Source: Candidatus Eiseniibacteriota bacterium (lineage in GTDB: Bacteria > Eisenbacteria > RBG-16-71-46). Taken from it: a DNA stretch of 64,000 nucleotides. Of the stretch, positions 1 through 34,723 are shown piece by piece; the first letter of the stretch is position 1; the number at the start of each line of letters is the position of its first letter. The translations under genes were made by a program, and so were the position numbers. The notes under the pieces are model-generated. The model was not told the DNA's origin. It made no database searches and saw nothing but the letters and a program-made list of their open reading frames with translations. The DNA lies in contig JANXPZ010000125.1 of NCBI GenBank assembly GCA_025357055.1, positions 800 through 64,799 on the forward strand, given 5' to 3'.

Positions 1-252
1 TTCGGCGGTGAGCCGGGCATCCTGATCCGCGGCCGCAACGGTGAGTACCGCGCCCTCTCCGCCGTCTGCACCCACCTGGGCTGCACCGTCCAGCTTCGCC
101 CCGACGGGCAGTCCATCTGGTGTGCGTGCCACAACGGTCTCTACGACCTCGAGGGACGCAACGTCTCGGGGCCGCCGCCACGGCCGCTCGAGTCCTACGT
201 CGTGCACGTCATCGGCGGGGACGTCGTGGTGGAGAAGGCGAAGGGCGCATGA
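1..252 (+). CDS. Rieske [2Fe-2S] subunit of a cytochrome bc/b6f-type complex (5'-truncated at window edge)
   Basis: Frame 1 from nt 1 reads ...[10 protein letters not shown]...[10 protein letters not shown]..., the two Rieske cluster-binding boxes (CxH...CxxH); the ORF is open to the window start; stop TGA at 250-252 overlaps the next ATG (ATGA). Confidence 0.8.
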
Positions 253-1322
253 ACCTGGCCGACTGGCTGCGCGAACGGCTCGGGCTCGAGGCGCTCGATC
301 ACGTGATCGAGAAGAAGCGCGTCCCGGTCCACCGCCACACGTTCTGGTACTACTGGGGCGGGATGACCCTGTTCCTCTTCGGGGTCCAGGTCGCGACCGG
401 CATCCTGCTCGTCCTCTATTACCGGCCGAGCGCCGACGAGGCCTACGAGAGCGTGCGTTTCCTGATGACGCAGGTCTCCTTCGGGTGGCTCATCCGCTCG
501 ATCCACTCCTGGTCCGCGAATCTGCTGGTGGGCGCGGCCATGATCCACATGTTCAGCGCCTTCATGCTCAAGTCGTACCGCCGGCCGCGCGAGGTGACCT
601 GGCTCACCGGCATGGGGCTCTTCGTGCTGTGCCTGGCCTTCGGCTTCAGCGGCTACCTGCTGCCGTGGAACCAGCTGGCGTTCTTCGCCACCAAGGTGGG
701 CACGGACATCATGGGCAGCGTGCCGCTGGTCGGTCCCTTCCTCGCGCGCCTGCTGCGCGGCGGCGACCAGATCACGGGCGGAACGCTCACGCGCTTCTTC
801 GGCTTCCACGTGGCGATCCTGCCGCTGTGCATGACGGCGCTGCTGGGCATCCACCTGTTCCTGGTGCAGTGGCACGGCATGAGCGTGCCGCCCGGTGCGG
901 AACAGCCCGTGGCCGCGCCGAAGCAGGAGATGAAGTTCGTCCCCGACTTCCTGCTGCGCGACCTGGTGGGCTGGCTCGCCGCGCTGGGCGCGCTCGCGCT
1001 GCTCGCCGCGCTCTTCCCCTGGGAGCTGGGGCTCAAGGCCGACCCCTACGCGTTCGCGCCCGCCGGCATCAAGCCCGAGTGGTATTTCGGATACATGTTC
1101 CAGACCCTGCGCATGATCCCTTCGCGGGTGCTCGGGATCGAGGGCGAGCTGCTGGGCATCGTGGGCTTCGGGCTGGGGGCCCTGGTTTGGGCGCTGGTCC
1201 CCTTCCTCGATGCGCCCGACGGCCGCGGCCCGCGGGCGCGCTTCTGGCGCGTGGTCGGCGTGCTGGCGATGCTCTACGTGGTCGTGTTCACCCTGCTGGT
1301 CTATCGCGGAGGACCCTCGTGA
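249..1322 (+). CDS. Cytochrome b (b6 + subunit-IV-like regions in one ~358 aa polypeptide)
   Basis: [12 protein letters not shown]...[11 protein letters not shown]...[11 protein letters not shown]...[16 protein letters not shown]... matches the cytochrome b/b6 family; length fits fused b6+SUIV; ATGA overlap with the Rieske stop. Confidence 0.85.
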
Positions 1323-2554
1323 GAGCCCTGCGGCGGTTGCTGTTCCTGGCGGGCGCGTTGCTGCTCGCGGCCGCGCCCGCGCGCGCGGTGGTGGACTCCT
1401 GCGTCGAGTGCCACCGCGGGCTCGACGACCCGCGCCTGAAGGCCCCGACCGCTGGCTTCCCGCATGACATCCACGCCGAGCGCGGCCTCACCTGCGCCGC
1501 CTGCCACGGTGGCGATCCGGCGGATCCGGATCCCTCGGCGATGGATCCGGAGAAGGGCTTCAAGGGCGCGCCCACCCGCGCGCAGATCGCTCCGCTGTGC
1601 GCCTCGTGCCACGCCGACGCGGCCTTCATGAAGCGCTACAACCCGCGGCCCTACGTGTTCTCGATGGCCGAGTGGCAGACCAGCGTGCACGCGAAGCTCG
1701 CGGCACGCGGCGACGCCAAGGTCGCCACCTGCACGAGTTGCCACGGCGTGCACGGCATCCGCCCGCCGAAGGACCCCGCCTCGCCGGTCTTCAAGACCAA
1801 CGTGCCGCGGACCTGCGCGAAGTGCCACAACGCCGGCTACATGAAGGGCCACCCGGTCCGCACCGACCAGTTCGCGCTCTATTCGAAGAGCGTGCACGGC
1901 GTGGCGCTGCTGGAGAAGGGGGACGTCTCCGCGCCGGCCTGCAACGACTGCCACGGCAACCACGGGGCCGCGCCGCCGGGCGTGAAGGACGTGACGATGG
2001 TCTGCGGCACCTGCCACGGCCGCGAGGCCGAGTTGTTCGAGGGCAGCCGGATGAAGGCGGGGCTGGACGCGATGGGCAAGCCCGGCTGCGTGACCTGCCA
2101 CGGCAACCACGGGGTGCAGCACCCGACCGACGCCATGCTCTCCGCGGCGCCGGGCGGCACCTGCGCGGGCTGCCACCGTCCCGGCTCGGTGGCCGAGCAG
2201 GGCACGAGCGCGATCGTGGCGAGCTTCCGCGGGCTGCAGGGCTCGCTCTCGACCGCGGACAGCCTGCTCCAGCTGGCCGAGGTGCGCGGCATGGAGACCG
2301 CCCCGGGCCGCGGGAACCTGAAGGAGGCGCAGGACGCCCTGGTCGGCGTGCGCGCCGGGCTGCACAGCTTCGATCCGAAGCAGATCGGCGCCGTCCTCGC
2401 CGAGGGCGCGGGGCTCTCCCGCAAGGCGACGGGCTACGGGCGCGAGGCGTTGCGCGACTGGCACAACCGCCGCTTGGGGATGGTCCTGTCGCTGGTCGTC
2501 ATCCTGATCCTGATCGGCCTCGTGGTCGCGAAGATCCGCCAGATCGAGAATTGA
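1319..2554 (+). CDS. Membrane-anchored multiheme cytochrome c (9 CXXCH), cytochrome subunit of bc complex 1
   Basis: GTG start overlapping the cyt b stop (GTGA); N-terminal signal/anchor; 9 CXXCH motifs (CVECH, CAACH, CASCH, CTSCH, CAKCH, CNDCH, CGTCH, CVTCH, CAGCH); C-terminal hydrophobic helix [19 protein letters not shown]; paralogous to 8273..9493. Confidence 0.8.
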
Positions 2555-3542: not shown

Positions 3543-4751
3543 CTACGCCGGGTGGATCGGTGCTTCTTCGGCCCGCTTCGCCGGCAGCAGCCGGACGAGC
3601 ACGAAGAGGATCAGGAAGGGCGCGAGCAGCAGCCCGAGCGCGGTGACCAGACCCTCCAGCCCGGTCATCTCCATCTTGTAGGCCATCAGCCCGCGGAAAC
3701 TCTTCGAGAAGAGCTGCCCGCCGATGACCACGTTCCAGCGCGTGCTGAAGATGCCGAGCTGGATCAGGAGCGCCGCGGTGAAGTAGAGGAGCTTCCTCAG
3801 GTCCGGGTTCACGCGCCGGGTGCGCGCCGCCACCAGCACCGCCAGCGGCACGAGCATGCCGAGCAGGACCTGGAGGATGACCAGGTTCATGAAGAGCTTC
3901 ACCGAGATGAGCTGCGCCAGGATCTTCACCGACTCCTCGCTCTGGTAGAGGCGGTGGATGAAGTCGAGCGCCTCGAGCGAGAAGTCCACGACCACGGCGT
4001 AGAACAGGTACGAGGCCACCTTGTCCAGGCACTTCATGTCCAGCGGTTCGTTCCGCAGGGAGGTGATCACCATGTAGAGGAACAGCACCAGCGCGATGCC
4101 GGAGACGATGGCCGACATCAGGAACACGATGGGCATGAGCACGCTGCTCCACCAGGGATTGGCCTTGATGGAGCCGAAGATGAAGCCCACGTAGCCGTGG
4201 AGCAGGAAGGCCGACGGGATGCCCACGATGGTGATCGTCCGGACCGCCTTCCGGTCGAAGGCGACCGCCTGCTCGCTGATGTCGTTCGAGAACAGGGAGA
4301 GCGCGCGGTAGACCCAGCGGAGCGGGGGCTTGTGCTCGCGGCCCCACACCACCAGGTCGCGCCGGTACTCGAACCAGATCTCGAGCAGCAGGATGCCCAT
4401 CAGGTACCAGGCGTAGACGAACCCGAACATGGCCATCGCCGAGGAGAGGTGCGGCGCCAGGAAGATCTCGAACGAGCGCTCCATGTGCCCGAGGTGCAGG
4501 AGCAGCGGGAAGGGCGCCACGAGCAGGAAGGACAGCGCGGTCAGGAGGGCGAGCCGGTAGGTGGGCTGGACCTCCTTCACGTTGAAGACCTTGACCAGCG
4601 AGGCCAGGATGAACGCGCCGGCCACGAGCCCGGTGAGATACGGGTAGACCACGATCAGGATCGACCAGTGGATCTCGATCTCGTTCGGGTAGATGTACCC
4701 GATGACCTGCCCGAGCAGCTCCGTCAGGTTGGGCGGCACCTGGGCGATCAT
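3543..4751 (-). CDS. NrfD/PsrC-family polytopic membrane quinol-interacting subunit
   Basis: 402 aa with 8-10 predicted TM helices; NrfD/PsrC-like sequence (…HLGHMERSFEIFLAPHLSSAMAMFGFVYAWYLMG…); GGAG RBS before the ATG; ATGA overlap with the upstream FeS gene. Confidence 0.8.
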   Translation of the reverse strand: MIAQVPPNLTELLGQVIGYIYPNEIEIHWSILIVVYPYLTGLVAGAFILASLVKVFNVKEVQPTYRLALLTALSFLLVAPFPLLLHLGHMERSFEIFLAPHLSSAMAMFGFVYAWYLMGILLLEIWFEYRRDLVVWGREHKPPLRWVYRALSLFSNDISEQAVAFDRKAVRTITIVGIPSAFLLHGYVGFIFGSIKANPWWSSVLMPIVFLMSAIVSGIALVLFLYMVITSLRNEPLDMKCLDKVASYLFYAVVVDFSLEALDFIHRLYQSEESVKILAQLISVKLFMNLVILQVLLGMLVPLAVLVAARTRRVNPDLRKLLYFTAALLIQLGIFSTRWNVVIGGQLFSKSFRGLMAYKMEMTGLEGLVTALGLLLAPFLILFVLVRLLPAKRAEEAPIHPA

Positions 4752-5523
4752 CGCACCTCTCCGTCGAGCTGGGCGTAGTAGACCTTGGGCTCGGTGTTGA
4801 GCGCGGGCTTCAGCACGTTGATCTTGTTCATGCGCTGGAAGCGCACGAGGCGGCTCGCCTTGCTCCGGAGGTCACCGAAGACGCGCGCCTGGGTCGGGCA
4901 CACCTCGACGCACGCCGGCAGCAGCCCCTTGACCACGCGGTGGTAGCAGAAGGTGCACTTGTCCGCGGTGTTGGTGCGGTGATTGAAGAAGCGTGCCCCG
5001 TAGGGACAGGCCTGGATGCAGTAGCGGCAGCCGATGCAGCGCGTGCTGTCCACCAGCACCACGCCGTCCGCGGTCGTGAAGGTGGCGCCGACCGGGCAGA
5101 CCTGCACGCAGGGCGCGTGCGCGCAGTGGTTGCAGAGCTTCGGCACGAAGAAGGAGCGCAGCACCTCGCGCTCATCCTGCGCCTTCCGCTCCCCGCGCGG
5201 ATTCACGCTGATGCACTCGACCTCGGTCTCGCCGCTCTGCTTCACGGTGTAGCGCTCGACCCAGGTGCGGAAGAAGAACGGCTCGGGGGGCACGTCGTTC
5301 TCGGCCTTGCACGCCTCCGCGCAGCGGTTGCAGCCGATGCACTTCTCGACTTCGATCCCCATCCCGTACCAGTGGTCGCGGGGCTCGTAGCCGGGAGTGG
5401 GCGAACCGGTCGCCCCGGCGGCGCCCGCGACCGACGCCTCCGCCTGGCGCATCAGGGCCTGGAGCACGGCGGCGGCCGGGATGAAGGCGATGGCCCCCTT
5501 CTTGAGGAACTCGCGCTTGTTCA
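4748..5523 (-). CDS. 4Fe-4S ferredoxin-type iron-sulfur subunit (NrfC/PsrB/HybA family), Tat-like signal
   Basis: MNKREFLKKGAIAFIPAAA... followed by four Cys clusters (CIGCNRCAEAC, CNHCAHAPCVQVCP, CIGCRYCIQACP, CTFC...CVEVCP); the track ORF 4748..6079 is actually two genes; ATGA overlaps on both sides. Confidence 0.85.
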
Positions 5524-6255
5524 TGGCCGTCCTTCCGGCAGGTGGGGGTAGTGACACTGCCAGCAGAGGTAGCCGCCGCCGTGGCTGGCGAGCTCCACCT
5601 TGGGCGCGTCCGGGTTGGCCGTGCCGCCGGCGTGGCACTGCCCGCAGAACTCGCGGGTCTGGGGCTTGCTGGGAAGCGCGCTGCGGGGCGCGATCCGGTG
5701 CTCCTTGCTCGCGGTGTGGCAGGTCGCGCAGGGCAGCAGCGCGTGCGCCGAGAGCGCCACGGTGCGGGCGATCTGCGCGTGGCAGGCCGCGCACTCCTTC
5801 GGGGTCTCCGGCGGCACCGGGTCGTGCGGGTTGTGGCAGGTGATGCAGGGCTTGAGCGGATTGTGGGATTCCGTGTTGATCTGCGGGAAGCCCGTGGGCC
5901 GTGCCGCGTCGTAGGCATGGCAGACCGGGCAGAACTTGCGGTCGCGGGGGGCGAAGGGCTTGACCGACATCGGGTCCTCCGCGTGTCCGGCGGCCGGTCC
6001 GTGGCAGGTCTCGCAGGCGAGCCCCTTGTGGTAGCCCAGGGCTTTCTTTTCCCACTCCTCCGCGTGGCAATCCTGGCACGCGGACGCGCCGGCGAAGTTG
6101 ACGGGCCGGGCGACCTCGCGCCGCACGGTGGCGGACTGGTGCACCGCGGTGGAGAAGTAGGCGCGCGGGATCAGCACGAATCGCACGAGCAGAGCCAGCG
6201 TCGCGACGAGCGCGACCACCACCGCGATGCGCGTGACCTGCTCGGGGAGCTTCAA
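5521..6255 (-). CDS. Membrane-anchored octaheme cytochrome c
   Basis: TTG start 4 nt after a GGAGG RBS; N-terminal TM helix; 8 CXXCH (CQDCH, CETCH, CPVCH, CITCH, CAACH, CATCH, CGQCH, CWQCH); stop overlaps the FeS gene start. Confidence 0.8.
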   Translation of the reverse strand: MKLPEQVTRIAVVVALVATLALLVRFVLIPRAYFSTAVHQSATVRREVARPVNFAGASACQDCHAEEWEKKALGYHKGLACETCHGPAAGHAEDPMSVKPFAPRDRKFCPVCHAYDAARPTGFPQINTESHNPLKPCITCHNPHDPVPPETPKECAACHAQIARTVALSAHALLPCATCHTASKEHRIAPRSALPSKPQTREFCGQCHAGGTANPDAPKVELASHGGGYLCWQCHYPHLPEGRP

Positions 6256-6454: not shown

Positions 6455-8272
6455 CTAGTCCTGGTGACACTGCGCGCAGGCGGACTTCGCCGGCCGCAAC
6501 TGCCCGGCGGCGGGGTCGTGACAGGTCTGGCACTCGAGGTCCATGTCGAGGTGGGCCTGGTGCGAGAACTCGCCGCGGAAGCTCTTCACGGTGCGCGTCT
6601 TCACGTCGGCGTGGCACGGCAGGCACGAGCCCCCGGCGGCCGCGGTCTTCCGATGATGGCAGGGCACACAGCCGGCCGGCCCGAAACGCACGACCTCTCC
6701 GCCCGCGCGTTCCTCGTGCGTCCGGTGGCAGGCGTCGCACTCGAGCTTCGCCTTGAGCAGGTGCGGACCATGGTCGAAGGCCCTGCCCTGCCAGGCCCCG
6801 CGCTGCGCCTCGACGCCGGTGTGGCACAGCATGCAGCGCCCCGAACTGGCGCCCGTGCGCCGCCACGGCAGCTCGAGCGGGGCCAGCCCCTTCGCGCGGC
6901 GGGCCTGGTTCATCAGCTCGTGGGAGCGCTCGAGCAGGGCGTAGGCGTACGTCATGTTGTGCACGGCCTTGCCCTGCGAGACCAGCAGGAAGTCGTGCCG
7001 CGCGTCCTGCCACGCCTGCGACGGCTCCAGGCCCATCGCGCCTGCGGTCGCTTCGAGCTGGCGCTGCAGCGCGGCGACACGCTGCGCGGAGGCGCTCTGC
7101 CAGGACCTGAAGATCGCCTGGTACCCGGGCCCGTGGCAGGCCATGCAGGAGACGCCGTCGGCACGCTGGATGACGGGCTCGAGCGGGCCCTTCGCGGCCT
7201 GGGTCGCGACGGCCTCCCCGTTGTGACAGCCCTGGCAGGTGACGCCGACCGCGGCCATCGGTCCGGGCTGGTCGGGCACGCCGCGCCCGCCGGTGCCGGC
7301 ATAGAGGCTCTGCTGAGCGCCGTGGCCCGCGCCGTGGCAGGGCCCGCAACTGCCCGCGTCGACGGCGCCCGCGCCGTGCGCGTCGGCGCGCGCGCCCTTC
7401 GGCGGGGCGCCGTGCGCGATCACGAGGTGGCAGTTCGTGCAGTCCACCTTGCGCTTGGAGACGTGCCAGTCGTGCAGGTAGTCCGGATCGCCGTAGCGCG
7501 CGAGCCGCTCCGGCTGGTTGTGGCAGGTGAGGCAGCGGATCTGCGGCACGTCGCCGGTCCCGCGGATCACGCCCGCGTGGCAGGCGCTGCACGAAGTGCC
7601 GAGGCGCGAGACCTCGCCATGGTCGAACGACACGCCGGCGGCGGTGGTGACGCGCCCGGGGACGGCGTGGCAGAGCCGGCAGCGGGCGGTGCCCTGATCG
7701 GGCGCCTCGCCCTTGAAGTGGCACAACGCGCAGGTCGTGGGGGTCACGGCGATGTGCGAGCCGACCATGACCTGCGAGTGGCACGAGGTGCAGCGCAGCC
7801 GGAAGCCCTTGCGGCTCTCGGTGAGGTGCGGGGTGTGGTCGAAGACCACGCCCTGGAAGTCGACCTTTCCCTCCAGCAGCCGGCGCTCGTGGCAGCGCAG
7901 GCAGTTGGCGTCGTCCACTTCGGCCCAGGGCTTGGTGCCGTAGGTGGCGGTGAAGTACTTCACGACCATCGAGAGCGCCTCGTACTTCTTGCGCAGTTCG
8001 GCGCCGATCCCCGGCGAGATGTGGCACTCCACGCAGGCGATGCGGTTGTGCTTCGACGTCTTCCAGGAGGCGTAGTACGGCTTCATCAGGTGGCAGGTCC
8101 CGCAGAACTGCGGCGTCGAGGTGCCGAGCATCGCGATCAGGGTGAGCACGACGAACAGTCCCAGAGCGAGCCCGGCGGCCAGCGTGAGGCCGCGCAGGCT
8201 GCGCCATCCGCCGCGGCCGCCCGGCCAGCGGCCGCGGGGCGGGGCGGGACCCGGCCCCGGGACGCCGGACAC
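6455..8272 (-). CDS. 18-heme c-type cytochrome, NapC/NirT/NrfH-family N-terminus fused to a large multiheme extension
   Basis: GTG start abutting the stop of 8273..9493 with 0 nt spacer; TM helix then ...STPQFCGTCHLMKPYYASWKTSKHN...CVECH (NapC/NrfH signature); 18 CXXCH in total. Confidence 0.75.
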   Translation of the reverse strand: MSGVPGPGPAPPRGRWPGGRGGWRSLRGLTLAAGLALGLFVVLTLIAMLGTSTPQFCGTCHLMKPYYASWKTSKHNRIACVECHISPGIGAELRKKYEALSMVVKYFTATYGTKPWAEVDDANCLRCHERRLLEGKVDFQGVVFDHTPHLTESRKGFRLRCTSCHSQVMVGSHIAVTPTTCALCHFKGEAPDQGTARCRLCHAVPGRVTTAAGVSFDHGEVSRLGTSCSACHAGVIRGTGDVPQIRCLTCHNQPERLARYGDPDYLHDWHVSKRKVDCTNCHLVIAHGAPPKGARADAHGAGAVDAGSCGPCHGAGHGAQQSLYAGTGGRGVPDQPGPMAAVGVTCQGCHNGEAVATQAAKGPLEPVIQRADGVSCMACHGPGYQAIFRSWQSASAQRVAALQRQLEATAGAMGLEPSQAWQDARHDFLLVSQGKAVHNMTYAYALLERSHELMNQARRAKGLAPLELPWRRTGASSGRCMLCHTGVEAQRGAWQGRAFDHGPHLLKAKLECDACHRTHEERAGGEVVRFGPAGCVPCHHRKTAAAGGSCLPCHADVKTRTVKSFRGEFSHQAHLDMDLECQTCHDPAAGQLRPAKSACAQCHQD

Positions 8273-9493
8273 CTAGCGGTTCCTCGCGGCCTGGTCGCGG
8301 AAGCGCTTGAGCACGAACAGCGTCAGCAGCACGTAGAACCAGAACGCGATGAGCACGTAGCGGTGCTGGCGCAGGTTCGCGAACTTGCCCTCGAGCTCCT
8401 TCTGCACCTCCTCACCCACCGCGCGGGCGCGGGTGGTGAAGCCGGCCACGACCTCCGGTTGCACGGAGTGCGCGGCGGGCAGCGCTTCACGCAGGTAGGT
8501 GTGCGCCTCCTCGATGCGGGCGTGATAGTCCTCGGTCTGGATCGGGATGGCGTCGGCCTTCGCGACCAGGGCCGCGGCCTTGTCCACCTCGGCCGCGGCG
8601 GTGCGGTATTCGGTCCAGAGCCTGCGGCCCAGGTCGAGCCGCCGCGCGTCGCCGGCGTGGCAGACGGCGCACGACGAGGCGAGACGCTCGGGCCGGGCCG
8701 CCTGCACACCGTGGGCCTCGTGGCAGGACGCGCACTCGGGGCGCCTGCCGCCGCGTGCCACGGCGTGGCCGCCCGAGGTGTAGTAGCGCCGTTCGGCGGT
8801 GTGGCACTGGCCGCACACCTTGTCGACGTCGCCGACGTTGGGCGGATTGGCGCCGTGCACGCCGTGGCAGGACACGCAGGTTGGCGCGCGCAGGTTGCCC
8901 TGCTCGAAGAGCGCCCGCGCGTGGACGCTCGACTGGTACTTCTTCAGCACGTCCTGGTGCTCGCGCGCCCCTGGCATGGCCCGGCTGCCGTGGCAGCGCC
9001 CGCAGGTCTGCGGGATGTTGAGCTGGTTGACGCTGCTCGCCGGGTCGTGGGGCGCGAGGATCTCGTGCGCGCCGTGGCAGTCCGAGCAGACGGCGACCTG
9101 GCGGTCGCCCCGGGCGAGGCGCTGGCCGTGACCCGACGTCTGGTAGAGCGCGTACTGGTCCACGGGCAGGTTGTAGGGGCGCATGCGCCCCTCGTCGGAG
9201 TGGCAGGTGGCGCAAAGTGCCGGGATGTCCTGGCGCGCGGGACGGCCCCGGAAGCCGGCGCCGTGCGCGGCCCCCGCGTCGAGGCTGCGGTCGTTGCCGC
9301 CGTGGCACGAGACGCAACGCACGCCTTCGGGTGCGTGACGGCTCTTCTCGAACTGGACGCGCTCGGCCGGGTGGCAGACGCCGCAGCGGCCCGAGGACGC
9401 GGTGATCGCCGCCGGTCCCGCCGGCGGGACGGTCTGGGCGTGGGCGGTCAGGGTCGCGACCGCGAGGAGCAGGAACACGAGCGGGGTCTTCAT
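8273..9493 (-). CDS. Membrane-anchored multiheme cytochrome c (9 CXXCH), cytochrome subunit of bc complex 2
   Basis: GGAGG RBS 7 nt upstream of the ATG; signal peptide MKTPLVFLLLAVATLTAHA; 9 CXXCH; C-terminal TM helix; clear paralogy to 1319..2554 (e.g. CATCHSDEGRMRPYN.../[15 protein letters not shown]...). Confidence 0.85.
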   Translation of the reverse strand: MKTPLVFLLLAVATLTAHAQTVPPAGPAAITASSGRCGVCHPAERVQFEKSRHAPEGVRCVSCHGGNDRSLDAGAAHGAGFRGRPARQDIPALCATCHSDEGRMRPYNLPVDQYALYQTSGHGQRLARGDRQVAVCSDCHGAHEILAPHDPASSVNQLNIPQTCGRCHGSRAMPGAREHQDVLKKYQSSVHARALFEQGNLRAPTCVSCHGVHGANPPNVGDVDKVCGQCHTAERRYYTSGGHAVARGGRRPECASCHEAHGVQAARPERLASSCAVCHAGDARRLDLGRRLWTEYRTAAAEVDKAAALVAKADAIPIQTEDYHARIEEAHTYLREALPAAHSVQPEVVAGFTTRARAVGEEVQKELEGKFANLRQHRYVLIAFWFYVLLTLFVLKRFRDQAARNR

Positions 9494-9497
9494 CGCC

Positions 9498-10628
9498 CTA
9501 CCTCCGCTCGAGCAGCGCGCCGAGCACGCTGAGCACGAGCCACACCAGGAGCACCGCGGCGCCCGCCAGCCGGATGCGCAGCCTGCGCCCGGGGGTCTCG
9601 TCGCGGCGCAGCCACAGCGGCAGGAGCAGCACCGCGAACGCGGCGGCCAGCATCACGAACCCGCTCAGCCAGGGCAGGGGCAGGCGCTGGAGCAGGACGT
9701 AGGGCGCCAGCATGTACCACGGGGGCCGCACCCCGCCGGGGGTGACGTACGGGTCGGCCGCCCCGTGGAAGCGCAGCGGCAGCAGCGTGGCCAGCGTCAC
9801 GAGGATCGCGAACAACCCGACCGTGAGCATGGTCATCGAGTAGAGATGTTCGCGATAGCGGATGGGCCTTTCGTCGCGGGCCGGTCCGGTCTGGCTCAGG
9901 CCGACGCGGCGCAGCGTGGCGAAGGTGAGGTAGAGGAAGGCGGCGTAGAACGCCGGCAGCACCATGACGTGCAGCACGTAGAAGCGGATCAGCACGTCCG
10001 CGTTCACGGTCCGTCCGCCCAGCAGGAACGCCAGGATGGGCCCGGCGATGGGGATCGCCCACACCACCTCGAGCCCGCGCACCGTGCTCCAGTAGGTGTG
10101 GGAGTCCCAGGTGAGGAGCCGTCCGGTGAAGTCCGACTGGATGACCACCCAGGTCATGGCCACCGCGCACCACCACAGCACCTCGCGCGGCGCGCGGTAC
10201 AGGCCCTCCCAGAACAGCCGCAGCAGGCGCAGCACGATGACCGCCACCAGCAGCCACGAGCCCCAGGCGTGCACCTGGTGGATGAACCAGCCGCCCGGCA
10301 GGTCGCGCACGATGGTGCGCGTGCTCTCGAAGGCGGCCTCGGGCGTGGGCCGGTAGTAGTAGGCGAGCAGCACGCCCGTCACGATCTGCAGGCCGAACAG
10401 GATGGCCGCCAGCAGGCCCAGCACGCGGGCGCCGTGCGCGTAGCGCGGCACCGGTTCGGCGGCCACCTCGCGCAGCACCTCGCGCACCGGCTTCTGCGTG
10501 TCCACCGGCGTATAGACCAGGCCGAAGTGGGTGATGAAGGAGAAGATCTCGCTCAGGTTCACGCGCTGCTCAAGCCAGTCCACCCAGCCCCCGCGCGCGG
10601 GCGGGCCCTGCCTGCCGGGCGCGTTCAT
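9498..10628 (-). CDS. Cytochrome b (b6 + subunit-IV-like), bc complex 2
   Basis: MNAPGRQGPP... then the cytochrome b family (…LLAYYYRPTPEAAFEST…GRLLTWDSHTYWSTV…); ATGA overlap with the Rieske stop; the track ORF's N-terminal extension is rejected. Confidence 0.85.
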   Translation of the reverse strand: MNAPGRQGPPARGGWVDWLEQRVNLSEIFSFITHFGLVYTPVDTQKPVREVLREVAAEPVPRYAHGARVLGLLAAILFGLQIVTGVLLAYYYRPTPEAAFESTRTIVRDLPGGWFIHQVHAWGSWLLVAVIVLRLLRLFWEGLYRAPREVLWWCAVAMTWVVIQSDFTGRLLTWDSHTYWSTVRGLEVVWAIPIAGPILAFLLGGRTVNADVLIRFYVLHVMVLPAFYAAFLYLTFATLRRVGLSQTGPARDERPIRYREHLYSMTMLTVGLFAILVTLATLLPLRFHGAADPYVTPGGVRPPWYMLAPYVLLQRLPLPWLSGFVMLAAAFAVLLLPLWLRRDETPGRRLRIRLAGAAVLLVWLVLSVLGALLERR

Positions 10629-11089
10629 ACCTGGACGAAGATCTCGCCGGCGCGGACCGACACCGGGTAGCTGGGGAGCGGCCGGGGCGGCGGGCCGGAG
10701 AGCACGTTGCCCGAGAGGTCGAAGCGCCCGTCGTGGCAGGGGCAGACCAGCGTCCTGCGGGCCGGTTCGTAGCCCAGGATGCAGCGCACGTGCGTGCACA
10801 CCGCCGAGAGGGCCAGAACGCGCGTGGCGTCGAGCCGGACCACGTAGAAGGGCGTCACCCCGTGACGGACGAGGCGACCTTCGCCCACGCGGTAGTCGGC
10901 CAGGAGTCCGGCGCTCACGGTGCGCTCGGCCTCGCGCTTCTCGGGCGCCTTGAGATAGGCGCCCACCACGGCGGCGGCGCCGAGCCCCCAGAGCGCGAGG
11001 AAGGTCTGCGAGAGCACGGTGAGGAAACGGCGCCGGTCCGCAGGGCCGGACGCCGGCAGGTGGATCGGACGGTCTTCAGGGATCGGCAT
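10625..11089 (-). CDS. Rieske [2Fe-2S] protein with Tat signal, bc complex 2
   Basis: MPIPEDRPIHLPASGPADRRRFLTVLSQ (twin-arginine), CTHVRC...CPCHDG Rieske boxes; 154 aa. Confidence 0.85.
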   Translation of the reverse strand: MPIPEDRPIHLPASGPADRRRFLTVLSQTFLALWGLGAAAVVGAYLKAPEKREAERTVSAGLLADYRVGEGRLVRHGVTPFYVVRLDATRVLALSAVCTHVRCILGYEPARRTLVCPCHDGRFDLSGNVLSGPPPRPLPSYPVSVRAGEIFVQV

Positions 11090-11322
11090 GGGATCTCCGA
11101 CGGGGTCGGGGACGCAGGACGCGCGGGCGGGTCGCCGTGCCCACTGGCCTGCGGCCGGCCAGTGCCCCGCGCGTGGCAGTAAGTCCAAGCCGCATCATAG
11201 CCCGTGAACCGCGCCCGGCCAATGCGACTCGAGGCCCATACCCGGTCCACCCGGAGCCCCCGGTCCACCGCCCGCCGGTTTCGCTCGACCTGCCGTCGCA
11301 TTTGCGCTATGAAGTCCATCCC

Positions 11323-16044: not shown

Positions 16045-16419
16045 ATGAGCGCGAGGGCTCTGCCGCTATCCGTCCTGAACGGCGCCCTCTATCTGGCCAC
16101 CTGCGCGCTCGCCGGAACCGGCCTGCTGCTGGAGCTCCGGATGGACGTGGAGGACGGTGCGGTCCGGCTCCTCGGCATGGGTCGGGATGACTGGGGCGAG
16201 ATCCACATCGTCCTCGCCCTCGCCTTCCTCGCCTTGACGGGGGTCCATCTCCTCTTGAACCGGGCCTGGATCAGGGTGTTCGTGACCCGGGCGGGATGGG
16301 CGATGCCCATGCTGGTCGTGGGGCTCGGGATGGTCGCGGTTCTGCTGCTCTGGCCGGCCGAACGCACGGCGGCTGGCGGCGACACGCATGCAGACCGGCG
16401 ACAGGAGGAAGTGGACTGA
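16045..16419 (+). CDS. Small 4-TM membrane protein (DUF4405-like)
   Basis: 124 aa, hydrophobic helices with conserved His (EIHIVLALAFLALTGVHLLLN); positioned upstream of a Moco-domain-like protein as in DUF4405/oxidoreductase pairs. Confidence 0.45.
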   Translation: MSARALPLSVLNGALYLATCALAGTGLLLELRMDVEDGAVRLLGMGRDDWGEIHIVLALAFLALTGVHLLLNRAWIRVFVTRAGWAMPMLVVGLGMVAVLLLWPAERTAAGGDTHADRRQEEVD

Positions 16420-16502
16420 TCCCCGGAACGACGGCCGCGGTCCGCGGGCGGATGGCGCCCGGATCTCGGCCGAATGACCCGCGAGACACAGAGGAGCGCC
16501 CG

Positions 16503-17495
16503 ATGCCCCGTCCCACGCGCCTGCCGTTCGTCCTCGCGCTGATCCTCGGCCTGTCCGTCTGCCTGCCCGCCCTGGCCGTCACCGCGCCCGCACTCGAGGT
16601 CGCCGGACCGGGCGGCCTGCGCGCCTTCTCCGTGGCGCAGCTGAGGAAGCTGCCCGTGACCGAGGGATTCGGCGGCGTGAAGAGCAGCACGGGCAAGGTC
16701 ACCCTGCCGGGGAGATGGAAGGGTGTGGCGCTGCGGGACCTGGTCGCCGCCGCCGGCGGTTGCGACGCCACGAAGAACCTCGCCGTCGTGGCGAAGGACG
16801 GCTACAGCATCACCTTCTCGCACGACCAGGTGATGAACGGCGGCTTCACCGCCTACGATCCCGGCACGGGCGACACGCTCGCGACGCACGAGCCGCTCCT
16901 TGCGCTCGTGGTCTACGAGCACGAGGGCCGGCCGCTGAACGTCACCGAGGACGGTCCGCTGCGCGTGATGGTGGTGAGCCCGACGGGCAGCCAGGTGACC
17001 GACGGGCACTGGTCCATCAAGTGGGTGACGAAGCTGACGATCCAGCCGGCGAGCGAGGCCTGGTCGCTGGCGCTCGAAGGCGCCCGGCCCGAGATCATGG
17101 ACCGCGCCACGTTCGAATCGGGGGCGTCGCCGAAGTGCCACGCGGCCACGTGGAAGGACGCGCGGGGCCGGGTGTGGACCGGCATCCCGCTCTGGCTGCT
17201 GGTCGGCCGCGTGGACGATGGTTCCAGGCACGGCGCGCGGGCGTTCAACGATTCGCTCGCCGCGGCCGGCTACACCGTGGACGTGGTCGCGGGCGACGGC
17301 GCCACGGTCTCGTTCGACAGCCGGCGGCTCGGGCGGAACGACGGGATCATCATCGCCGGCCTGCTCGACGGCGCGCCGCTGCCCGCGCAGTCGTTCCCGC
17401 TGCAGCTGGCCGGCCCGGACCTCAAGGACGGAGAGCGGCTCGGCGGGATCTCGAGGATCGTCGTCCACGCGCCCGGGGCGCCGCGGTCGCGCTGA
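16503..17495 (+). CDS. Secreted protein with two tandem molybdopterin-binding oxidoreductase-like domains (sulfite-oxidase/YedY fold family)
   Basis: Signal peptide MPRPTRLPFVLALILGLSVCLPALA; domain 1 ...GVALRDLVAAAG...EGRPLNVTEDGPLRVMVVSPTGSQVTDGHWSIKWVTKLTI; domain 2 ends ...PLQLAGPDLKDGERLGGISRIVVHA. Confidence 0.5.
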   Translation: MPRPTRLPFVLALILGLSVCLPALAVTAPALEVAGPGGLRAFSVAQLRKLPVTEGFGGVKSSTGKVTLPGRWKGVALRDLVAAAGGCDATKNLAVVAKDGYSITFSHDQVMNGGFTAYDPGTGDTLATHEPLLALVVYEHEGRPLNVTEDGPLRVMVVSPTGSQVTDGHWSIKWVTKLTIQPASEAWSLALEGARPEIMDRATFESGASPKCHAATWKDARGRVWTGIPLWLLVGRVDDGSRHGARAFNDSLAAAGYTVDVVAGDGATVSFDSRRLGRNDGIIIAGLLDGAPLPAQSFPLQLAGPDLKDGERLGGISRIVVHAPGAPRSR

Positions 17496-31405: not shown

Positions 31406-32893
31406 ATGAGCATGCTCCTCACCACGCTCGCCTTCGTCGCGCTGACGGCGCTCATCGCCTGGTGGCACGTGCGCGGCTCGGGCACCGTCGCGTCGGCTCG
31501 CGACCTGAGGCCGTGTCCGCGCTGCCGCACCCGCTTCGAAGCCGGCGCCTCGTTGTGTCCGGGCTGTGGCGTGCCGCGGCAGGCGTACGAGCTGGTGAGT
31601 GCCCCCGTCGTGGGGGCCGCGGCGCCGCTCGAGGCGGGCGTGAAGCCGCACCCCATCGTCCGCACCAACCTGTGCGTGGGCTGCGGCACCTGCGTGGCGG
31701 CCTGCCCCGAGCCCGGGGCGATCCGGCTGCAGGACCACCGCGCGTTCGTGGACCTCGACGTCTGTGTGCGGCACGGGACCTGCGCGGTGGCCTGCCCGAT
31801 GAACGCCATCGTGATGGCGGCGGGCGCGGCGGTGCAGCGCATCGAGGTGCCGGAGCTGGACGCGAACTTCCAGAGCAACGTGCCCGGGCTCTATGTGGTG
31901 GGCGAGTTGGGCGGGCGCGGGCTCATCAAGAACGCGATCAACGAGGGCCGCATCGCCATCGAGCACGTCGCCCGCGTGCTGGCGGCGGGCCGCCCGCTGC
32001 GGATGGGAGACGCCGGACCCGGGGGCGGTGAGCCGGACTCCCCCGGGCCCTACGACGTGCTCGTGGTGGGCTCGGGCCCCGCGGGGATCTCGGCCGCGCT
32101 CGAGGCGAAGCGCCTGGGGCTGCGCTGTGTCGTGATCGAGCAGGGCACGATCTCGGACACGATCCGCAAGTACCCGCGCCGCAAGCTCCTGCTCGCCGAG
32201 CCCTCGCGCGTCCAGCTCTACGGTGGATTGTGGGTGGCCGATGCCTCGAAGGAGGAGCTGCTGTCGGTGTGGGAGACGATCATCGCGCGCGCCGGCCTGC
32301 GCGTGCGGACCGGCGAGCGGGTCGAGTCGCTGGAGAGCGACGGTGTGCTGTTCCGCGTGCGCACCCCGGGGACCGAGTACCAGGCCCGCAAGGTGCTGCT
32401 GGCGATGGGCCGGCGCGGCACTCCGCGGCGGCTGGGCGTGCCGGGCGAGGAGCTGGAGAAGGCCCTCTATGACATCGTCGAGATGGAGGCGTTCGCGGGT
32501 TGCCGCATGCTGGTGGTGGGCGGCGGCGACAGCGCGATCGAATCGGCGCTCGGGCTCGCCAACCAGCCGGACACCTCGGTCACGCTCTCCTACCGCGGCC
32601 AGGAGTTCCCGCGGCTGAAGGAGCGCAACCGCGAGAAGCTCGAGGCCGCGCTCCAGGCCTCCGGCGAAGGCGGCGCGGGCCGCGTGGAACTGCTGCTCGG
32701 CAGCCGCGTGATCGAGATCCGCCCCGGCGTGGTGGCGCTCGACTGCGCGGGCATGCCCCGCCTGCTCCCCAACGACTACGTGGTCGTCCGCATCGGTGGC
32801 GAGCCGCCGTACCCGTTCATCGAGCGTTGCGGCGTGCGGATCGTGACCAAGGAGATCGCGATCGACACCGGTGCGGAAAGGCGGGCCGGGTGA
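31406..32893 (+). CDS. Membrane-anchored 2x[4Fe-4S] ferredoxin-domain + FAD/NAD(P)-binding (thioredoxin-reductase-like) oxidoreductase
   Basis: N-terminal TM helix; Zn-ribbon-like CPRC...CPGC; CVGCGTCVAACP and CVRHGTCAVACP ferredoxin motifs; DVLVVGSGPAGISAALEA (FAD GxGxxG) and MLVVGGGDSAIESALGLA (NAD(P)). Confidence 0.7.
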   Translation: MSMLLTTLAFVALTALIAWWHVRGSGTVASARDLRPCPRCRTRFEAGASLCPGCGVPRQAYELVSAPVVGAAAPLEAGVKPHPIVRTNLCVGCGTCVAACPEPGAIRLQDHRAFVDLDVCVRHGTCAVACPMNAIVMAAGAAVQRIEVPELDANFQSNVPGLYVVGELGGRGLIKNAINEGRIAIEHVARVLAAGRPLRMGDAGPGGGEPDSPGPYDVLVVGSGPAGISAALEAKRLGLRCVVIEQGTISDTIRKYPRRKLLLAEPSRVQLYGGLWVADASKEELLSVWETIIARAGLRVRTGERVESLESDGVLFRVRTPGTEYQARKVLLAMGRRGTPRRLGVPGEELEKALYDIVEMEAFAGCRMLVVGGGDSAIESALGLANQPDTSVTLSYRGQEFPRLKERNREKLEAALQASGEGGAGRVELLLGSRVIEIRPGVVALDCAGMPRLLPNDYVVVRIGGEPPYPFIERCGVRIVTKEIAIDTGAERRAG

Positions 32894-34683: not shown

Positions 34684-34723
34684 GGAAGGAACGCACGAGA
34701 TCCATCCAGTCGGAAGGCTGGTC

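What the first reader, a model, noticed from the sequence alone, without database searches (positions are those of the whole stretch)
6455..8272. 18-heme cytochrome that starts as a NapC/NirT/NrfH quinol dehydrogenase and continues into a 14-heme extension, abutting a bc-complex cytochrome gene
The N-terminus has a single TM helix followed by CGTCH...KHN...CVECH, the hallmark of the membrane tetraheme quinol dehydrogenase family. That family normally ends after 4-5 hemes, but here the protein continues to 18 CXXCH motifs over 605 aa. Its GTG start directly abuts the stop of the 9-heme cytochrome subunit of a Rieske/cyt b operon, so two different quinol-oxidising modules would be co-expressed. 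A NapC-type anchor fused to a long heme wire could export electrons from the quinol pool without the partner enzymes that NapC/NrfH usually serve.
Basis: partly seen in the sequence, partly recalled or inferred. Interest (0 to 1): 0.7.

Follow-up and report, generated by a model that had tools for sequence, protein, structure and literature searches.

The report
NrfH-headed 18-heme cytochrome of bc complex
This is a real, conserved 18-heme membrane cytochrome from an uncultured Candidatus Eisenbacteria bacterium that joins a quinol-dehydrogenase-type anchor to a nitrite-reductase-like heme module and always sits behind a Rieske/cytochrome b complex, so it most likely moves respiratory electrons out of the membrane; nobody has studied the family.

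Summary
Window 6455-8272(-) encodes a 605-aa protein with 18 CXXCH motifs, where shuffles give 0.13. It has one N-terminal TM helix and a NapC/NirT/NrfH tetraheme domain (Pfam PF03264, 53 bits against a cut-off of 24). Its GTG start abuts the TAG stop of a 9-heme cytochrome in a Rieske/cyt b operon. It is not a mis-join: two independent assemblies carry identical DNA, and homologous loci show two coupled genes in varying frames.

The family is large, with 354 50%-identity representatives at E<=1e-30. All named members come from MAGs of several phyla. A 12-heme core is invariant. The Rieske-cyt b-multiheme-NapC-like module recurs in Eisenbacteria, Zixibacteria and Tectomicrobia.

Only heme motifs and ligand candidates are conserved, which favours electron transfer over catalysis. 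My best reading is a quinol-linked multiheme exit subunit of a bc-type complex. It is a new variant of a known kind. Its function is untested.

The parts
6455..8272 (-). MHC18 gene: 605-aa, 18-heme membrane-anchored cytochrome c (GTG start, TAG stop)
   Evidence: ORF and translation. 18 CXXCH. Identical protein called in independent assemblies. More than 700 homologues of ~600 aa.
8281..8284 (-). AGGA Shine-Dalgarno-like motif 8 nt upstream of the GTG, inside the 3' end of the 9-heme gene (translational coupling)
   Evidence: Read directly from the sequence. The stop and start abut or overlap by 1-4 nt in most of the related loci where the upstream gene could be read.
8126..8188 (-). Single N-terminal transmembrane helix (residues ~29-49), preceded by an Arg-rich cytoplasmic N-terminus
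   Evidence: Sequence. Modelled as helix 23-50. Aligns with the TM helix of NrfH 2j7a_C.
7772..8185 (-). NapC/NirT/NrfH-like tetraheme domain (residues 30-167, hemes 1-4) with CXXCHxM at heme 1 (M63) and Lys96 aligned to NrfH Lys82
   Evidence: PF03264 at 53.1 bits against GA 24.1, covering profile positions 11-166 of 174. TIGR03153 NrfH at 57.6 bits. PDB NrfH alignment. M63 is kept in 91% and K96 in 93% of occupied positions across 135 distant representatives.
7544..7771 (-). Hemes 5-7 (residues 168-243), c7/c3-like connecting units
   Evidence: Pfam Cytochrome_C7, c3_2 and CIII stretches. Motifs are invariant.
6902..7543 (-). OcwA/NrfA-like pentaheme module (hemes 8-12, residues 244-380) plus three-helix bundle (residues 382-460). 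The profile alignment to OcwA starts at residue 222.
6461..6853 (-). C-terminal hexaheme (hemes 13-18, residues 474-604): two c7-type triheme repeats. Absent from the ~450-aa family members.
   Evidence: Pfam Cytochrome_C7. PDB profile hits to c7/PpcA, the 333-aa chain 6r2q_A (which I recall is the decahaem MtrA of the MtrCAB complex) and ACIII ActA. About 25-30% of representatives lack it.
8273..9493 (-). MHC9: 406-aa 9-heme cytochrome with an N-terminal signal peptide and a C-terminal TM anchor (c1/f-like topology)
   Evidence: Syntenic in most related loci.
9498..10628 (-). Cytochrome b (376 aa, fused b6 + subunit IV type). Its ATG overlaps the Rieske stop (ATGA).
   Evidence: PF00033, PF13631 and PF00032. 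ExtP-like at 147.8 bits, below the cut-off. Gene call of 376 aa.
10625..11089 (-). Rieske [2Fe-2S] protein (154 aa)
   Evidence: PF00355. CTH..C and CPCH boxes visible in the sequence. Gene call of 154 aa.
11194..11222 (-). Sigma-70-like promoter match upstream of the Rieske gene (weak evidence). A divergent Na+/H+ exchanger gene lies beyond it.
5521..6255 (-). MHC8: 244-aa 8-heme cytochrome with an N-terminal hydrophobic segment, 199 nt downstream of MHC18
   Evidence: Gene call. Also present in L001 and L021, and as a longer 7-CXXCH ORF in L008.
4748..5524 (-). NrfC/DsrO-like 4Fe-4S protein (258 aa, Tat-like N-terminus). The 443-aa ORF in the list is over-extended.
3543..4751 (-). NrfD-like integral membrane quinone-interacting subunit (402 aa)
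   Evidence: PF03916 at 124.7 bits.

Best explanation
MHC18 is the large membrane-anchored multiheme subunit of a bc-type menaquinol:multiheme-cytochrome oxidoreductase found in Candidatus Eisenbacteria and some other uncultured phyla.

Shown:
- It is one polypeptide made of a TM helix, an NrfH-type tetraheme head, three c7-like hemes, an OcwA/NrfA-like pentaheme module with a three-helix bundle, and two c7 trihemes.
- It is translationally coupled to a 9-heme cytochrome with c1-like topology, behind Rieske and cyt b genes.

Inferred mechanism:
- Quinol is oxidised at the Qo site of the Rieske/cyt b core.
- The Rieske cluster reduces MHC9, the stand-in for cytochrome c1.
- MHC9 hands electrons to MHC18. 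Its 18 closely packed, mostly bis-His hemes relay them away from the membrane to periplasmic or outer multiheme cytochromes, and finally to an extracellular or periplasmic acceptor.
- The NrfH-type head keeps the heme-1 signature of a menaquinol site (CXXCHxM and the Lys). It therefore probably also exchanges electrons directly with the quinone pool. That gives the complex a second, electroneutral entry route beside the energy-conserving Q-cycle route.
- The NrfA-like module serves here as a heme scaffold or junction, not as an enzyme.
For: - Architecture.
- Synteny: Rieske-cyt b-MHC9-MHC18 is found in 19 of the 27 fetched loci. In 5 more the contig ends inside or just upstream of the module, so only its downstream genes are seen.
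- The same four-gene module occurs with 37-45% identical homologues in Zixibacteria (L036), Tectomicrobia (L028) and L032.
- Stop/start abutment or a 1-4 nt overlap in most loci where it could be read implies co-translation.
- MHC9 has a signal peptide and a C-terminal TM anchor, like cytochrome c1.
- In 135 representatives of at most 50% mutual identity, the only strongly conserved residues are the 12 core heme motifs, ten non-motif His, M63, M339, K96 and a few Gly/Pro/Trp. That makes 12 candidate sixth ligands for 12 hemes, and no conserved Arg/Tyr/Asp catalytic set.
- The neighbourhoods are rich in further multiheme cytochromes of 8, 9, 13, 19, 20 and 42 hemes.
- Stand-alone family members exist (L031, L037). 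This argues that the NrfH head can reach the quinone pool on its own.
- Precedents: ImcH and CymA are NapC/NirT-type quinol oxidases for extracellular electron transfer (bioRxiv 10.1101/2023.05.03.539133). Geobacter has a conserved Rieske + cyt b + 10-heme + 12-heme cluster (PMC2825233). Multiheme c-type acceptors for ancestral bc complexes were proposed by Dibrova et al. 2013, as cited in PMC5317091.
Against: - There are no biochemical, expression or structural data for any family member.
- The direction of electron flow is unknown.
- Bis-His multihemes usually have low potentials and are awkward acceptors for a Rieske centre.
- NrfH Asp89 aligns with Val103, so the quinol pocket is not fully conserved.
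- Some members replace the first CXXCH with CX3CH or lack a standard motif there.
- His317 sits at the position of the non-ligating distal His of OcwA's open heme 5, so a catalytic heme cannot be excluded (PMC6703420).
- No outer-membrane porin-cytochrome conduit was identified in the window.
- The whole-protein model is of low confidence (pLDDT 61), so the heme chain geometry is unverified.
Confidence: 0.55

Rival explanations
1. MHC18 is a self-contained quinol-dependent reductase. The NrfH head oxidises menaquinol, and the fused NrfA/OcwA-like module carries a pentacoordinate catalytic heme (heme 8, C247) that reduces a small substrate such as nitrite, hydroxylamine, sulfite or a metal chelate. 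In effect it would be a covalent NrfH-NrfA.
For: - The middle module is homologous to OcwA hemes 5-9, which superimpose on NrfA. OcwA heme 5, which aligns with heme 8 here, is pentacoordinate and active (PMC6703420).
- His317 (97% conserved) aligns with the first His of OcwA's distal HH motif.
- Some family members stand alone with no redox partner nearby.
- Some bona fide NrfAs use CXXCH at the active heme (PMC12285233).
Against: - There is no CXXCK.
- No conserved Arg/Tyr/Lys/Asp/Ca-site residues surround the module across 135 representatives.
- The number of conserved His and Met equals the number of core hemes, so every heme can be six-coordinate.
- Six further hemes follow the module, which is unnecessary for an end-point enzyme.
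- The gene is tightly linked to bc genes.
Confidence: 0.15
2. The parts are the same but the flow is reversed. The 27 c-type hemes of MHC9 and MHC18 take up electrons from an external donor (Fe(II), a cathode, humics or a partner cell). They split them between quinone reduction at the NrfH head and reverse operation of the bc complex, as in iron oxidisers.
For: - NapC/NirT proteins of the CymA type are found in metal oxidisers as well as metal reducers (bioRxiv 10.1101/2023.05.03.539133).
- Cyc2 iron-oxidase homologues have been reported in Eisenbacteria MAGs (PMC9769843).
- Having two quinone-linked modules in one operon fits a branched uphill/downhill scheme.
Against: No Cyc2, MtoAB-type porin or carbon-fixation genes were seen in the window. 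Nothing in the sequence gives direction. The Eisenbacteria MAGs in that study were described as peptide-degrading heterotrophs (PMC9769843).
Confidence: 0.15
3. The NrfH-like head is only a membrane anchor and heme scaffold inherited by descent. It no longer binds quinol, and MHC18 is purely a downstream c-type subunit of the bc complex.
For: - There is near-obligate synteny with Rieske/cyt b in Eisenbacteria.
- NrfH Asp89 is not conserved.
- The heme-1 motif varies in some members, with CX3CH in three loci and no standard motif in two others.
- The NCBIfam NrfH score is far below the equivalog cut-off (57.6 against 134.2).
Against: - M63 of CXXCHxM and K96 are kept in more than 90% of very divergent members, as are W70, S73 and H75 around heme 1.
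- Family members occur without any bc genes, either alone or with NrfCD or HydC-type cyt b modules.
Confidence: 0.2
4. Artefact: either one 27-heme gene was split by a sequencing error, or a programmed read-through of the in-frame TAG fuses MHC9 and MHC18.
For: The TAG stop of MHC9 and the GTG start of MHC18 are adjacent and in the same frame. The same arrangement is seen in seven of the related loci.
Against: - The DNA is identical in two independent assemblies.
- In other loci the two ORFs overlap by 1-4 nt or lie in different frames (offsets 0, 1 and 2), and they are never fused.
- MHC9 ends with its own TM anchor, and MHC18 begins with its own Arg-rich segment and TM helix.
- An AGGA motif precedes the GTG.
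Confidence: 0.02

Closest known systems
NrfH, the tetraheme menaquinol dehydrogenase of the NrfHA nitrite reductase (PDB 2J7A/2VR0), within the NapC/NirT/NrfH family (PF03264)
   Same: It has a single N-terminal TM helix, four CXXCH motifs, CXXCHxM at heme 1 and a Lys aligned to NrfH Lys82. Pfam scores above threshold, and NrfH is the best NCBIfam and PDB match for the head.
   Different: It is 605 aa with 18 hemes, against ~160 aa with 4. It scores far below the NrfH equivalog cut-off. NrfH Asp89 is not conserved. The partner-like NrfA-type module is fused in cis rather than encoded as a separate enzyme. The gene sits in a bc operon, not an nrf operon.
OcwA of Thermincola potens (PDB 6I5B) and OmhA of Carboxydothermus ferrireducens (6QVM): NrfA-related surface multiheme terminal reductases
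   Different: OcwA is a soluble or cell-wall nonaheme of Gram-positive bacteria with a c554-like N-terminal half and two open hemes. Here the module is embedded between an NrfH head and c7 repeats in a membrane-anchored protein, and there is no evidence for open hemes.
ImcH (Geobacter sulfurreducens) and CymA (Shewanella): NapC/NirT-type quinol oxidases that feed extracellular electron transfer
   Same: Each has a NapC/NirT/NrfH-like head followed by further hemes in one membrane protein. Each recycles menaquinol and passes electrons to periplasmic cytochromes (bioRxiv 10.1101/2023.05.03.539133).
   Different: ImcH has three TM helices, 7 hemes and His/Gln coordination at heme 1, with no NrfA-like module and no bc linkage. 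CymA has 4 hemes. Neither was tested directly against MHC18 here.
The Geobacter GSU2930-2937 cluster (Cbc6, Ext M-S names in NCBIfam): Rieske + cyt b + 10-heme + 12-heme cytochromes
   Same: It is a bc-type core encoded with two large multiheme cytochromes instead of cytochrome c1 (PMC2825233). The window's cyt b gives its best NCBIfam hit to ExtP.
   Different: The cyt b score is below the ExtP cut-off (147.8 against 290). MHC18 gives no ExtM hit at E<=0.01. The Geobacter cluster's function is also unestablished.
Multiheme c + NrfC + NrfD modules (Nrf-BCD, Hmc, Nhc/Ohc, Qrc, ACIII type)
   Same: The MHC8-NrfC-NrfD genes directly downstream have this composition. The distant family member in L030 is linked to NrfCD instead of bc.
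   Different: This describes the neighbour, not MHC18 itself. It is present next to MHC18 only in the closest relatives (L001, L008, L021).

Membership tests
NapC/NirT/NrfH cytochrome c family (PF03264) | Profile match above Pfam's gathering threshold across the tetraheme domain | tested here: met
   53.1 bits against 24.1. Residues 30-167 cover profile positions 11-166 of 174.
NapC/NirT/NrfH cytochrome c family (PF03264) | Single N-terminal TM helix followed by four CXXCH motifs on the periplasmic side | tested here: met
   Hydrophobic residues 29-49 follow an Arg-rich N-terminus. CXXCH motifs at 57, 80, 124 and 161.
NapC/NirT/NrfH cytochrome c family (PF03264) | Quinol dehydrogenase activity | not testable with these tools
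   This needs purified protein, menadiol or DMNH2 reduction, and HQNO inhibition.
NrfH sensu stricto (TIGR03153 equivalog) | Score above the curated equivalog cut-off | tested here: not met
   57.6 bits against a cut-off of 134.2. TorC models are also far below their cut-offs.
NrfH sensu stricto (TIGR03153 equivalog) | CXXCHxM at heme 1 and the conserved quinol-site Lys (NrfH Met49 and Lys82; residue roles recalled from Rodrigues et al. 2006/2008, and the numbering agrees with the chain alignment) | tested here: met
   C57-G-T-C-H61-L-M63. K96 aligns with Lys82. M63 is kept in 91% and K96 in 93% of occupied positions in 135 representatives.
NrfH sensu stricto (TIGR03153 equivalog) | Distal Asp (NrfH Asp89) at heme 1 | tested here: not met
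   Asp89 aligns with Val103. The neighbouring Met102 is invariant only among close relatives. The alignment in this stretch is of modest confidence.
NrfH sensu stricto (TIGR03153 equivalog) | Encoded with, and serving, a separate NrfA nitrite reductase | tested here: not met
   There is no nrfA in the window cluster. The neighbours are Rieske, cyt b, MHC9, MHC8 and NrfCD.
NrfA superfamily, OcwA/OmhA/MccA clade (pentaheme core plus three-helix bundle) | Sequence and fold similarity of a five-heme module followed by three long helices | tested here: met
NrfA superfamily, OcwA/OmhA/MccA clade (pentaheme core plus three-helix bundle) | Catalytic heme: a CXXCK motif or a pentacoordinate CXXCH heme with conserved distal pocket residues | tested here: inconclusive
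   There is no CXXCK. His317 occupies the OcwA distal-His position, but the ligand count allows full six-coordination and no other pocket residues are conserved. The coordination state needs spectroscopy or a heme-aware structure.
Rieske/cytochrome b (bc-type) complex, c-type cytochrome subunit | Encoded in one operon with the Rieske and cyt b genes, and conserved with them | tested here: met
   Same strand with abutting or overlapping genes. All four genes are found in 19 of 27 loci, and 5 further loci are cut short by contig ends. The module is also present in Zixibacteria, Tectomicrobia and L032.
Rieske/cytochrome b (bc-type) complex, c-type cytochrome subunit | Physical association with, and electron transfer from, the Rieske protein | not testable with these tools
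   This needs co-purification or cryo-EM. Some distant family members lack bc genes.
Geobacter ExtM (GSU2935-type 12-heme cytochrome of the Cbc6 cluster) | Match to NF040943 | tested here: not met
   MHC18 gives no hit at E<=0.01. Only MHC9 gives a marginal hit (E 0.009, 14 bits against a cut-off of 800).

The most novel reading that the evidence does not exclude
MHC18 and its widespread 12-heme core family could be covalent NrfH-NrfA fusions that keep an open, catalytically active heme (heme 8). They would then be membrane-bound, quinol-driven reductases wired directly into a Rieske/cyt b complex. That would be a previously unrecognised respiratory enzyme class in Eisenbacteria, Zixibacteria, Methylomirabilota, Tectomicrobia and others. 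The bc complex and the NrfH head might feed one heme network from two quinol sites, which would act as a built-in gear shift between an energy-conserving and an electroneutral route.
Probability: 0.15. Interest if true: 0.8.

Novelty: new variant of a known kind. Interest (0 to 1): 0.55.

Why it matters
Eisenbacteria and the other phyla that carry this family are uncultured, and their respiration is known only from gene lists. The four-gene module (Rieske, cyt b, a 9-heme and a NapC-headed 12- to 18-heme cytochrome) is conserved across phyla. It is a concrete candidate for how anaerobes couple a Q-cycle to multiheme electron export, an arrangement proposed as ancestral for bc complexes but never characterised.

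The finding that an NrfH-type head and an NrfA/OcwA-type module occur in one polypeptide links two well-studied partner proteins into a single chain. It also gives an expressible target for asking whether such modules act as enzymes or as wires.

Current annotation ("NapC/NirT family" or "cytochrome c3 family protein") hides the architecture. That could mislead metabolic inference from MAGs, for example by prompting false calls of nitrate or TMAO respiration.

Tried and rejected
- Whole-protein AlphaFold2 model. Mean pLDDT was 61 and pTM 0.46, and the Foldseek search with it gave nothing significant. I replaced it with a domain model of residues 205-470.
- Mis-join or sequencing error. Rejected.
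- Read-through fusion across the in-frame TAG. Rejected, because homologous loci use different frames and overlaps, and each protein has its own topogenic signals.
- Filing the protein as NrfH or TorC. Scores are far below the equivalog cut-offs.
- Orthology with Geobacter ExtM. No hit.
- A crude GC3 filter for gene calling. It missed real genes, so I relied on homology and on external gene calls instead.
- The 837-aa "MtrC-like" ORF at 41-2554(+) and the 443-aa "NrfC" ORF. Both are over-extended in this 72% GC DNA. They resolve into cyt b2 + MHC9b, and MHC8 + NrfC.
- Literature searches for a described family with this architecture, or for Eisenbacteria cytochromes. I found nothing specific.
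- Terminator scan of the MHC18-MHC8 gap. No convincing site.
- Deciding the coordination state of heme 8 from His/Met counting. Inconclusive.
Full report
**1.

Window 6455-8272 on the minus strand is an open frame of 605 codons from GTG to TAG.
- It contains 18 CXXCH motifs and no CXXCK.
- 20,000 shuffles of the protein's own residues give a mean of 0.13 motifs and never more than 3. The other five frames of the same DNA contain none.
- Third-position GC is 0.95 in DNA that is 72% GC overall.
- All 18 motifs are invariant in an alignment of 49 homologues of 52-92% identity.

**2. The junction is real, and these are two genes**

The upstream gene (8273-9493, minus strand) encodes a 406-aa protein with 9 CXXCH, an N-terminal signal peptide and a C-terminal TM helix. 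Its TAG is directly followed, in the same frame, by the GTG of the 18-heme gene. An AGGA motif lies 8 nt upstream of that GTG.

Two contigs assembled independently from other sequencing runs carry the identical 3039 nt of both genes. Automatic gene calling there gives the same two products, 406 aa and 605 aa.

In the related loci where the upstream gene could be read, its stop and the start of the 18-heme gene mostly abut or overlap by 1-4 nt, with frame offsets of 0, 1 or 2. The two are never fused. A sequencing error, a mis-join and programmed read-through are therefore all rejected. Translational coupling is the simplest reading.

**3. Anatomy of the protein**

- **Head, residues 30-167.** They match Pfam PF03264 (NapC/NirT N-terminal region) at 53.1 bits against a gathering score of 24.1, over almost the whole profile.
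  - The best NCBIfam hit is NrfH at 57.6 bits, far below its 134.2 equivalog cut-off. TorC follows.
  - Against solved structures the head aligns with NrfH of Desulfovibrio vulgaris (2j7a_C) from the TM helix through heme 3.
  - In that alignment the CXXCHxM of NrfH heme 1 is kept (M63), and NrfH Lys82 aligns with K96. NrfH Asp89 aligns with Val103.
  - The roles of those NrfH residues come from the NrfHA structures, as summarised in bioRxiv 10.1101/2023.05.03.539133, and from my memory of Rodrigues et al.
- **Hemes 5-7.** These are c7/c3-like.
- **Middle, residues 222-457.** This is the new point.
  - A profile of the family hits OcwA of Thermincola potens (6i5b_A, residues 253-498) at E 1.6e-26. 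It hits the undecaheme OmhA (6qvm_A) at E 1.9e-13.
  - A domain model of residues 205-470 (pLDDT 81, pTM 0.72) finds OcwA first with Foldseek (probability 1.0).
  - The OcwA paper shows that its hemes 5-9 superimpose on the NrfA pentaheme core and are followed by the NrfA-type three-helix bundle (PMC6703420).
  - Hemes 8-12 plus helices 382-460 of MHC18 are therefore an NrfA-superfamily module.
- **C-terminus, residues 474-604.** These are two c7-type triheme repeats.
- **Overall.** The protein reads TM, NrfH-like 4 hemes, 3 hemes, NrfA/OcwA-like 5 hemes with bundle, then 6 hemes.

**4. Genomic setting**

On the same strand, in order:

| Gene | Coordinates | Note |
|---|---|---|
| Rieske | 10625-11089 | |
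| cyt b | 9498-10628 | ATGA overlap with Rieske |
| MHC9 | 8273-9493 | |
| MHC18 | 6455-8272 | |
| NrfC-like Fe-S protein | 4748-5524 | |
| NrfD-like membrane protein | 3543-4751 | |

- The only promoter-like match lies just upstream of the Rieske gene, and the next gene beyond it is a divergent Na+/H+ exchanger.
- A second cyt b (120-1322) and a second 9-heme paralogue (about 1406-2554) converge from the plus strand.
- The closest genome hits are Candidatus Eisenbacteria MAGs, at 91% and 81% protein identity.

**5. The family**

- The protein has more than 700 relatives in a 90%-clustered database, nearly all 590-650 aa long.
- In the 50%-clustered library it has 2236 representatives at E<=1e-3 and 354 at E<=1e-30.
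- Many distant members are about 450 aa and end right after the three-helix bundle. The common core is therefore 12 hemes, made of the NrfH-like part, three hemes and the NrfA-like part.
- Others add C-terminal hemes, reaching 32 CXXCH in L025, or are fused behind longer proteins.
- A profile of the 450-aa forms finds 1478 proteins at E<=1e-20.
  - Named sources are MAGs of Methylomirabilota, Eisenbacteria, Gemmatimonadota, Aminicenantes, Zixibacteria, Tectomicrobia, Schekmanbacteria and Acidobacteriota.
  - Their labels are only "NapC/NirT family cytochrome c", "cytochrome c3 family protein" or "nitrate/TMAO reductase-like tetraheme cytochrome c subunit".
- I found no cultured or characterised member and no paper describing the architecture.

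**6. Synteny**

- Rieske-cyt b-MHC9-MHC18 is present in 19 of the 27 fetched loci. In 5 more (L003, L005, L018, L023, L024) the contig ends inside or just upstream of the module, so only its downstream genes are seen.
- The same four-gene order recurs with 37-45% identical homologues in a Zixibacteria genome (L036) and a Tectomicrobia MAG (L028, with one inverted cytochrome gene in between). In L032 two tandem Rieske-cyt b-multiheme sets precede it.
- Other members sit next to NrfC-NrfD-multiheme (L030) or after repeated multiheme + HydC-type cyt b pairs (Methylomirabilis, L035). One lies beside both kinds of module (Schekmanbacteria, L038), and two stand alone (L031, L037).
- The downstream MHC8-NrfCD set accompanies MHC18 only in the closest relatives.
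- Elsewhere the neighbours are 13-, 19- and 42-heme proteins.

**7. Enzyme or wire?**

- In 135 representatives of at most 50% mutual identity, the strongly conserved positions of the 12-heme core form a short list:
  - the twelve CXXCH motifs;
  - ten other His (75, 146, 149, 173, 218, 267, 270, 287, 317, 438);
  - M63, M339 and K96;
  - a few Gly, Pro, Trp and Asn residues.
- That gives twelve candidate sixth ligands for twelve hemes. No Arg/Tyr/Asp/Lys set is conserved of the kind that marks NrfA-type active sites. This pattern is typical of electron-transfer multihemes and argues against catalysis.
- The argument is not decisive, for two reasons:
  - His317 aligns with the first His of the OcwA HH motif, which lies over OcwA's open heme 5 without binding it.
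  - OcwA too has enough His for full bis-His ligation and yet has two open hemes (PMC6703420).

**8. Most likely mechanism (inference)**

- The Rieske/cyt b core oxidises menaquinol.
- MHC9, with c1-like topology, takes the Rieske electron.
- MHC18 takes electrons from MHC9 and conducts them through its heme chain to further multihemes and an external or periplasmic acceptor.
- The NrfH-type head keeps the heme-1 signature in very divergent members, and some members have no bc partner. It therefore probably also taps the quinone pool directly and electroneutrally, as ImcH and CymA do (bioRxiv 10.1101/2023.05.03.539133).
- The direction of flow, the acceptor and any catalytic activity are unknown. 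I put this reading at about 0.55.
- Four rivals remain:
  - a fused NrfH-NrfA-type reductase, 0.15;
  - inward electron uptake, 0.15;
  - a vestigial quinol site, 0.2;
  - an artefact, 0.02.

**9. Comparison with what is known**

- It contains an NrfA-superfamily module of the OcwA clade, but it is not an NrfA (no CXXCK, no conserved active-site residues).
- It works most like ImcH or CymA, which are quinol-linked multiheme entry points to extracellular electron transfer.
- At operon level it is most like the uncharacterised Geobacter Rieske + cyt b + 10-heme + 12-heme cluster (PMC2825233). Direct orthology to ExtM was tested and not found.
- Multiheme c-type acceptors for early anaerobic bc complexes were proposed by Dibrova et al. 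2013, as cited in PMC5317091.

**10. Verdict**

The finding is real and not an artefact. It needs one amendment: the "wire" contains a fused NrfA-like module.

It is a new variant of a known kind, namely a NapC/NirT-headed multiheme quinol-linked cytochrome attached to a bc complex. It is widespread but unstudied.

Interest is 0.55. It would be higher if an open catalytic heme or dual-site quinol chemistry were demonstrated.

Noticed in passing
window 5521-6255 (-) and 4748-6079 (-): An 8-heme cytochrome gene (244 aa, N-terminal hydrophobic segment) lies between MHC18 and the NrfC-like gene. The 443-aa NrfC ORF in the mechanical list is over-extended across it in another frame. The real NrfC start is the ATG at 5524 (MNKREFLKKG..., Tat-like), overlapping the MHC8 stop as ATGA.
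   Followed up: yes
window 120-1322 (+) and ~1406-2554 (+): A second cytochrome b gene and a second 9-heme cytochrome converge on the main cluster. The 9-heme is a paralogue of MHC9 (30-35% identity, same signal peptide plus C-terminal TM). The 837-aa MtrC-like ORF at 41-2554 is an over-extension. A second Rieske gene is probably cut off by the window start, since L003 shows Rieske and cyt b next to the homologue.
   Followed up: partly
window 32473-34683 (+) and 34442-36166 (+): Two overlapping ORFs in different frames carry 20 and 17 CXXCH motifs. They may be one giant cytochrome of about 37 hemes split by a frameshift, or two genes. Related loci hold 42-heme proteins of 1045-1200 aa (L009, L017).
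   Followed up: no
P0407, P0142, P0385, P0395; locus L038 6001-7803: Some family members (Candidatus Schekmanbacteria and others) carry an N-terminal response-regulator receiver domain (PF00072) fused in front of the TM helix and the 12-heme core. This suggests a phosphorylation-controlled or redox-signalling version.
   Followed up: no
L008, L013, L021 (around 8001-8200); L007, L010: The first heme motif is CGSICH (CX3CH) instead of CXXCH in three loci. In L007 and L010 the sequence reads FCGFT/FCGYT at that place, so a standard heme-1 motif may be missing. Heme 1 is the putative quinol-site heme.
   Followed up: no
L025 7935-10826; L023; P0157, P0244, P0247: There are expanded relatives. One is a 963-aa, 32-CXXCH homologue preceded by an 11-heme ORF and without Rieske/cyt b nearby. 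Another is a 21-heme Gemmatimonadota version. Three proteins of 1320-1441 aa carry the family region at their C-terminal end.
   Followed up: no
window 9498-10628 (-), cyt b residues '...VRPPWYMLAPY...': The Qo-site motif reads PPWY rather than PEWY. From memory of Qo-motif surveys, non-PEWY variants go with low-potential quinones such as menaquinone.
   Followed up: no
L032 1169-6988: Two complete Rieske-cyt b-multiheme sets stand in tandem directly upstream of the NapC-like gene. This parallels the two bc-type sets flanking the cluster in the window.
   Followed up: no
window 16296-17495 (+): This ORF has a sulfite-oxidase-type molybdopterin-binding domain (PF00174, 36 bits), a few kb from the cytochrome cluster.
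   Followed up: no
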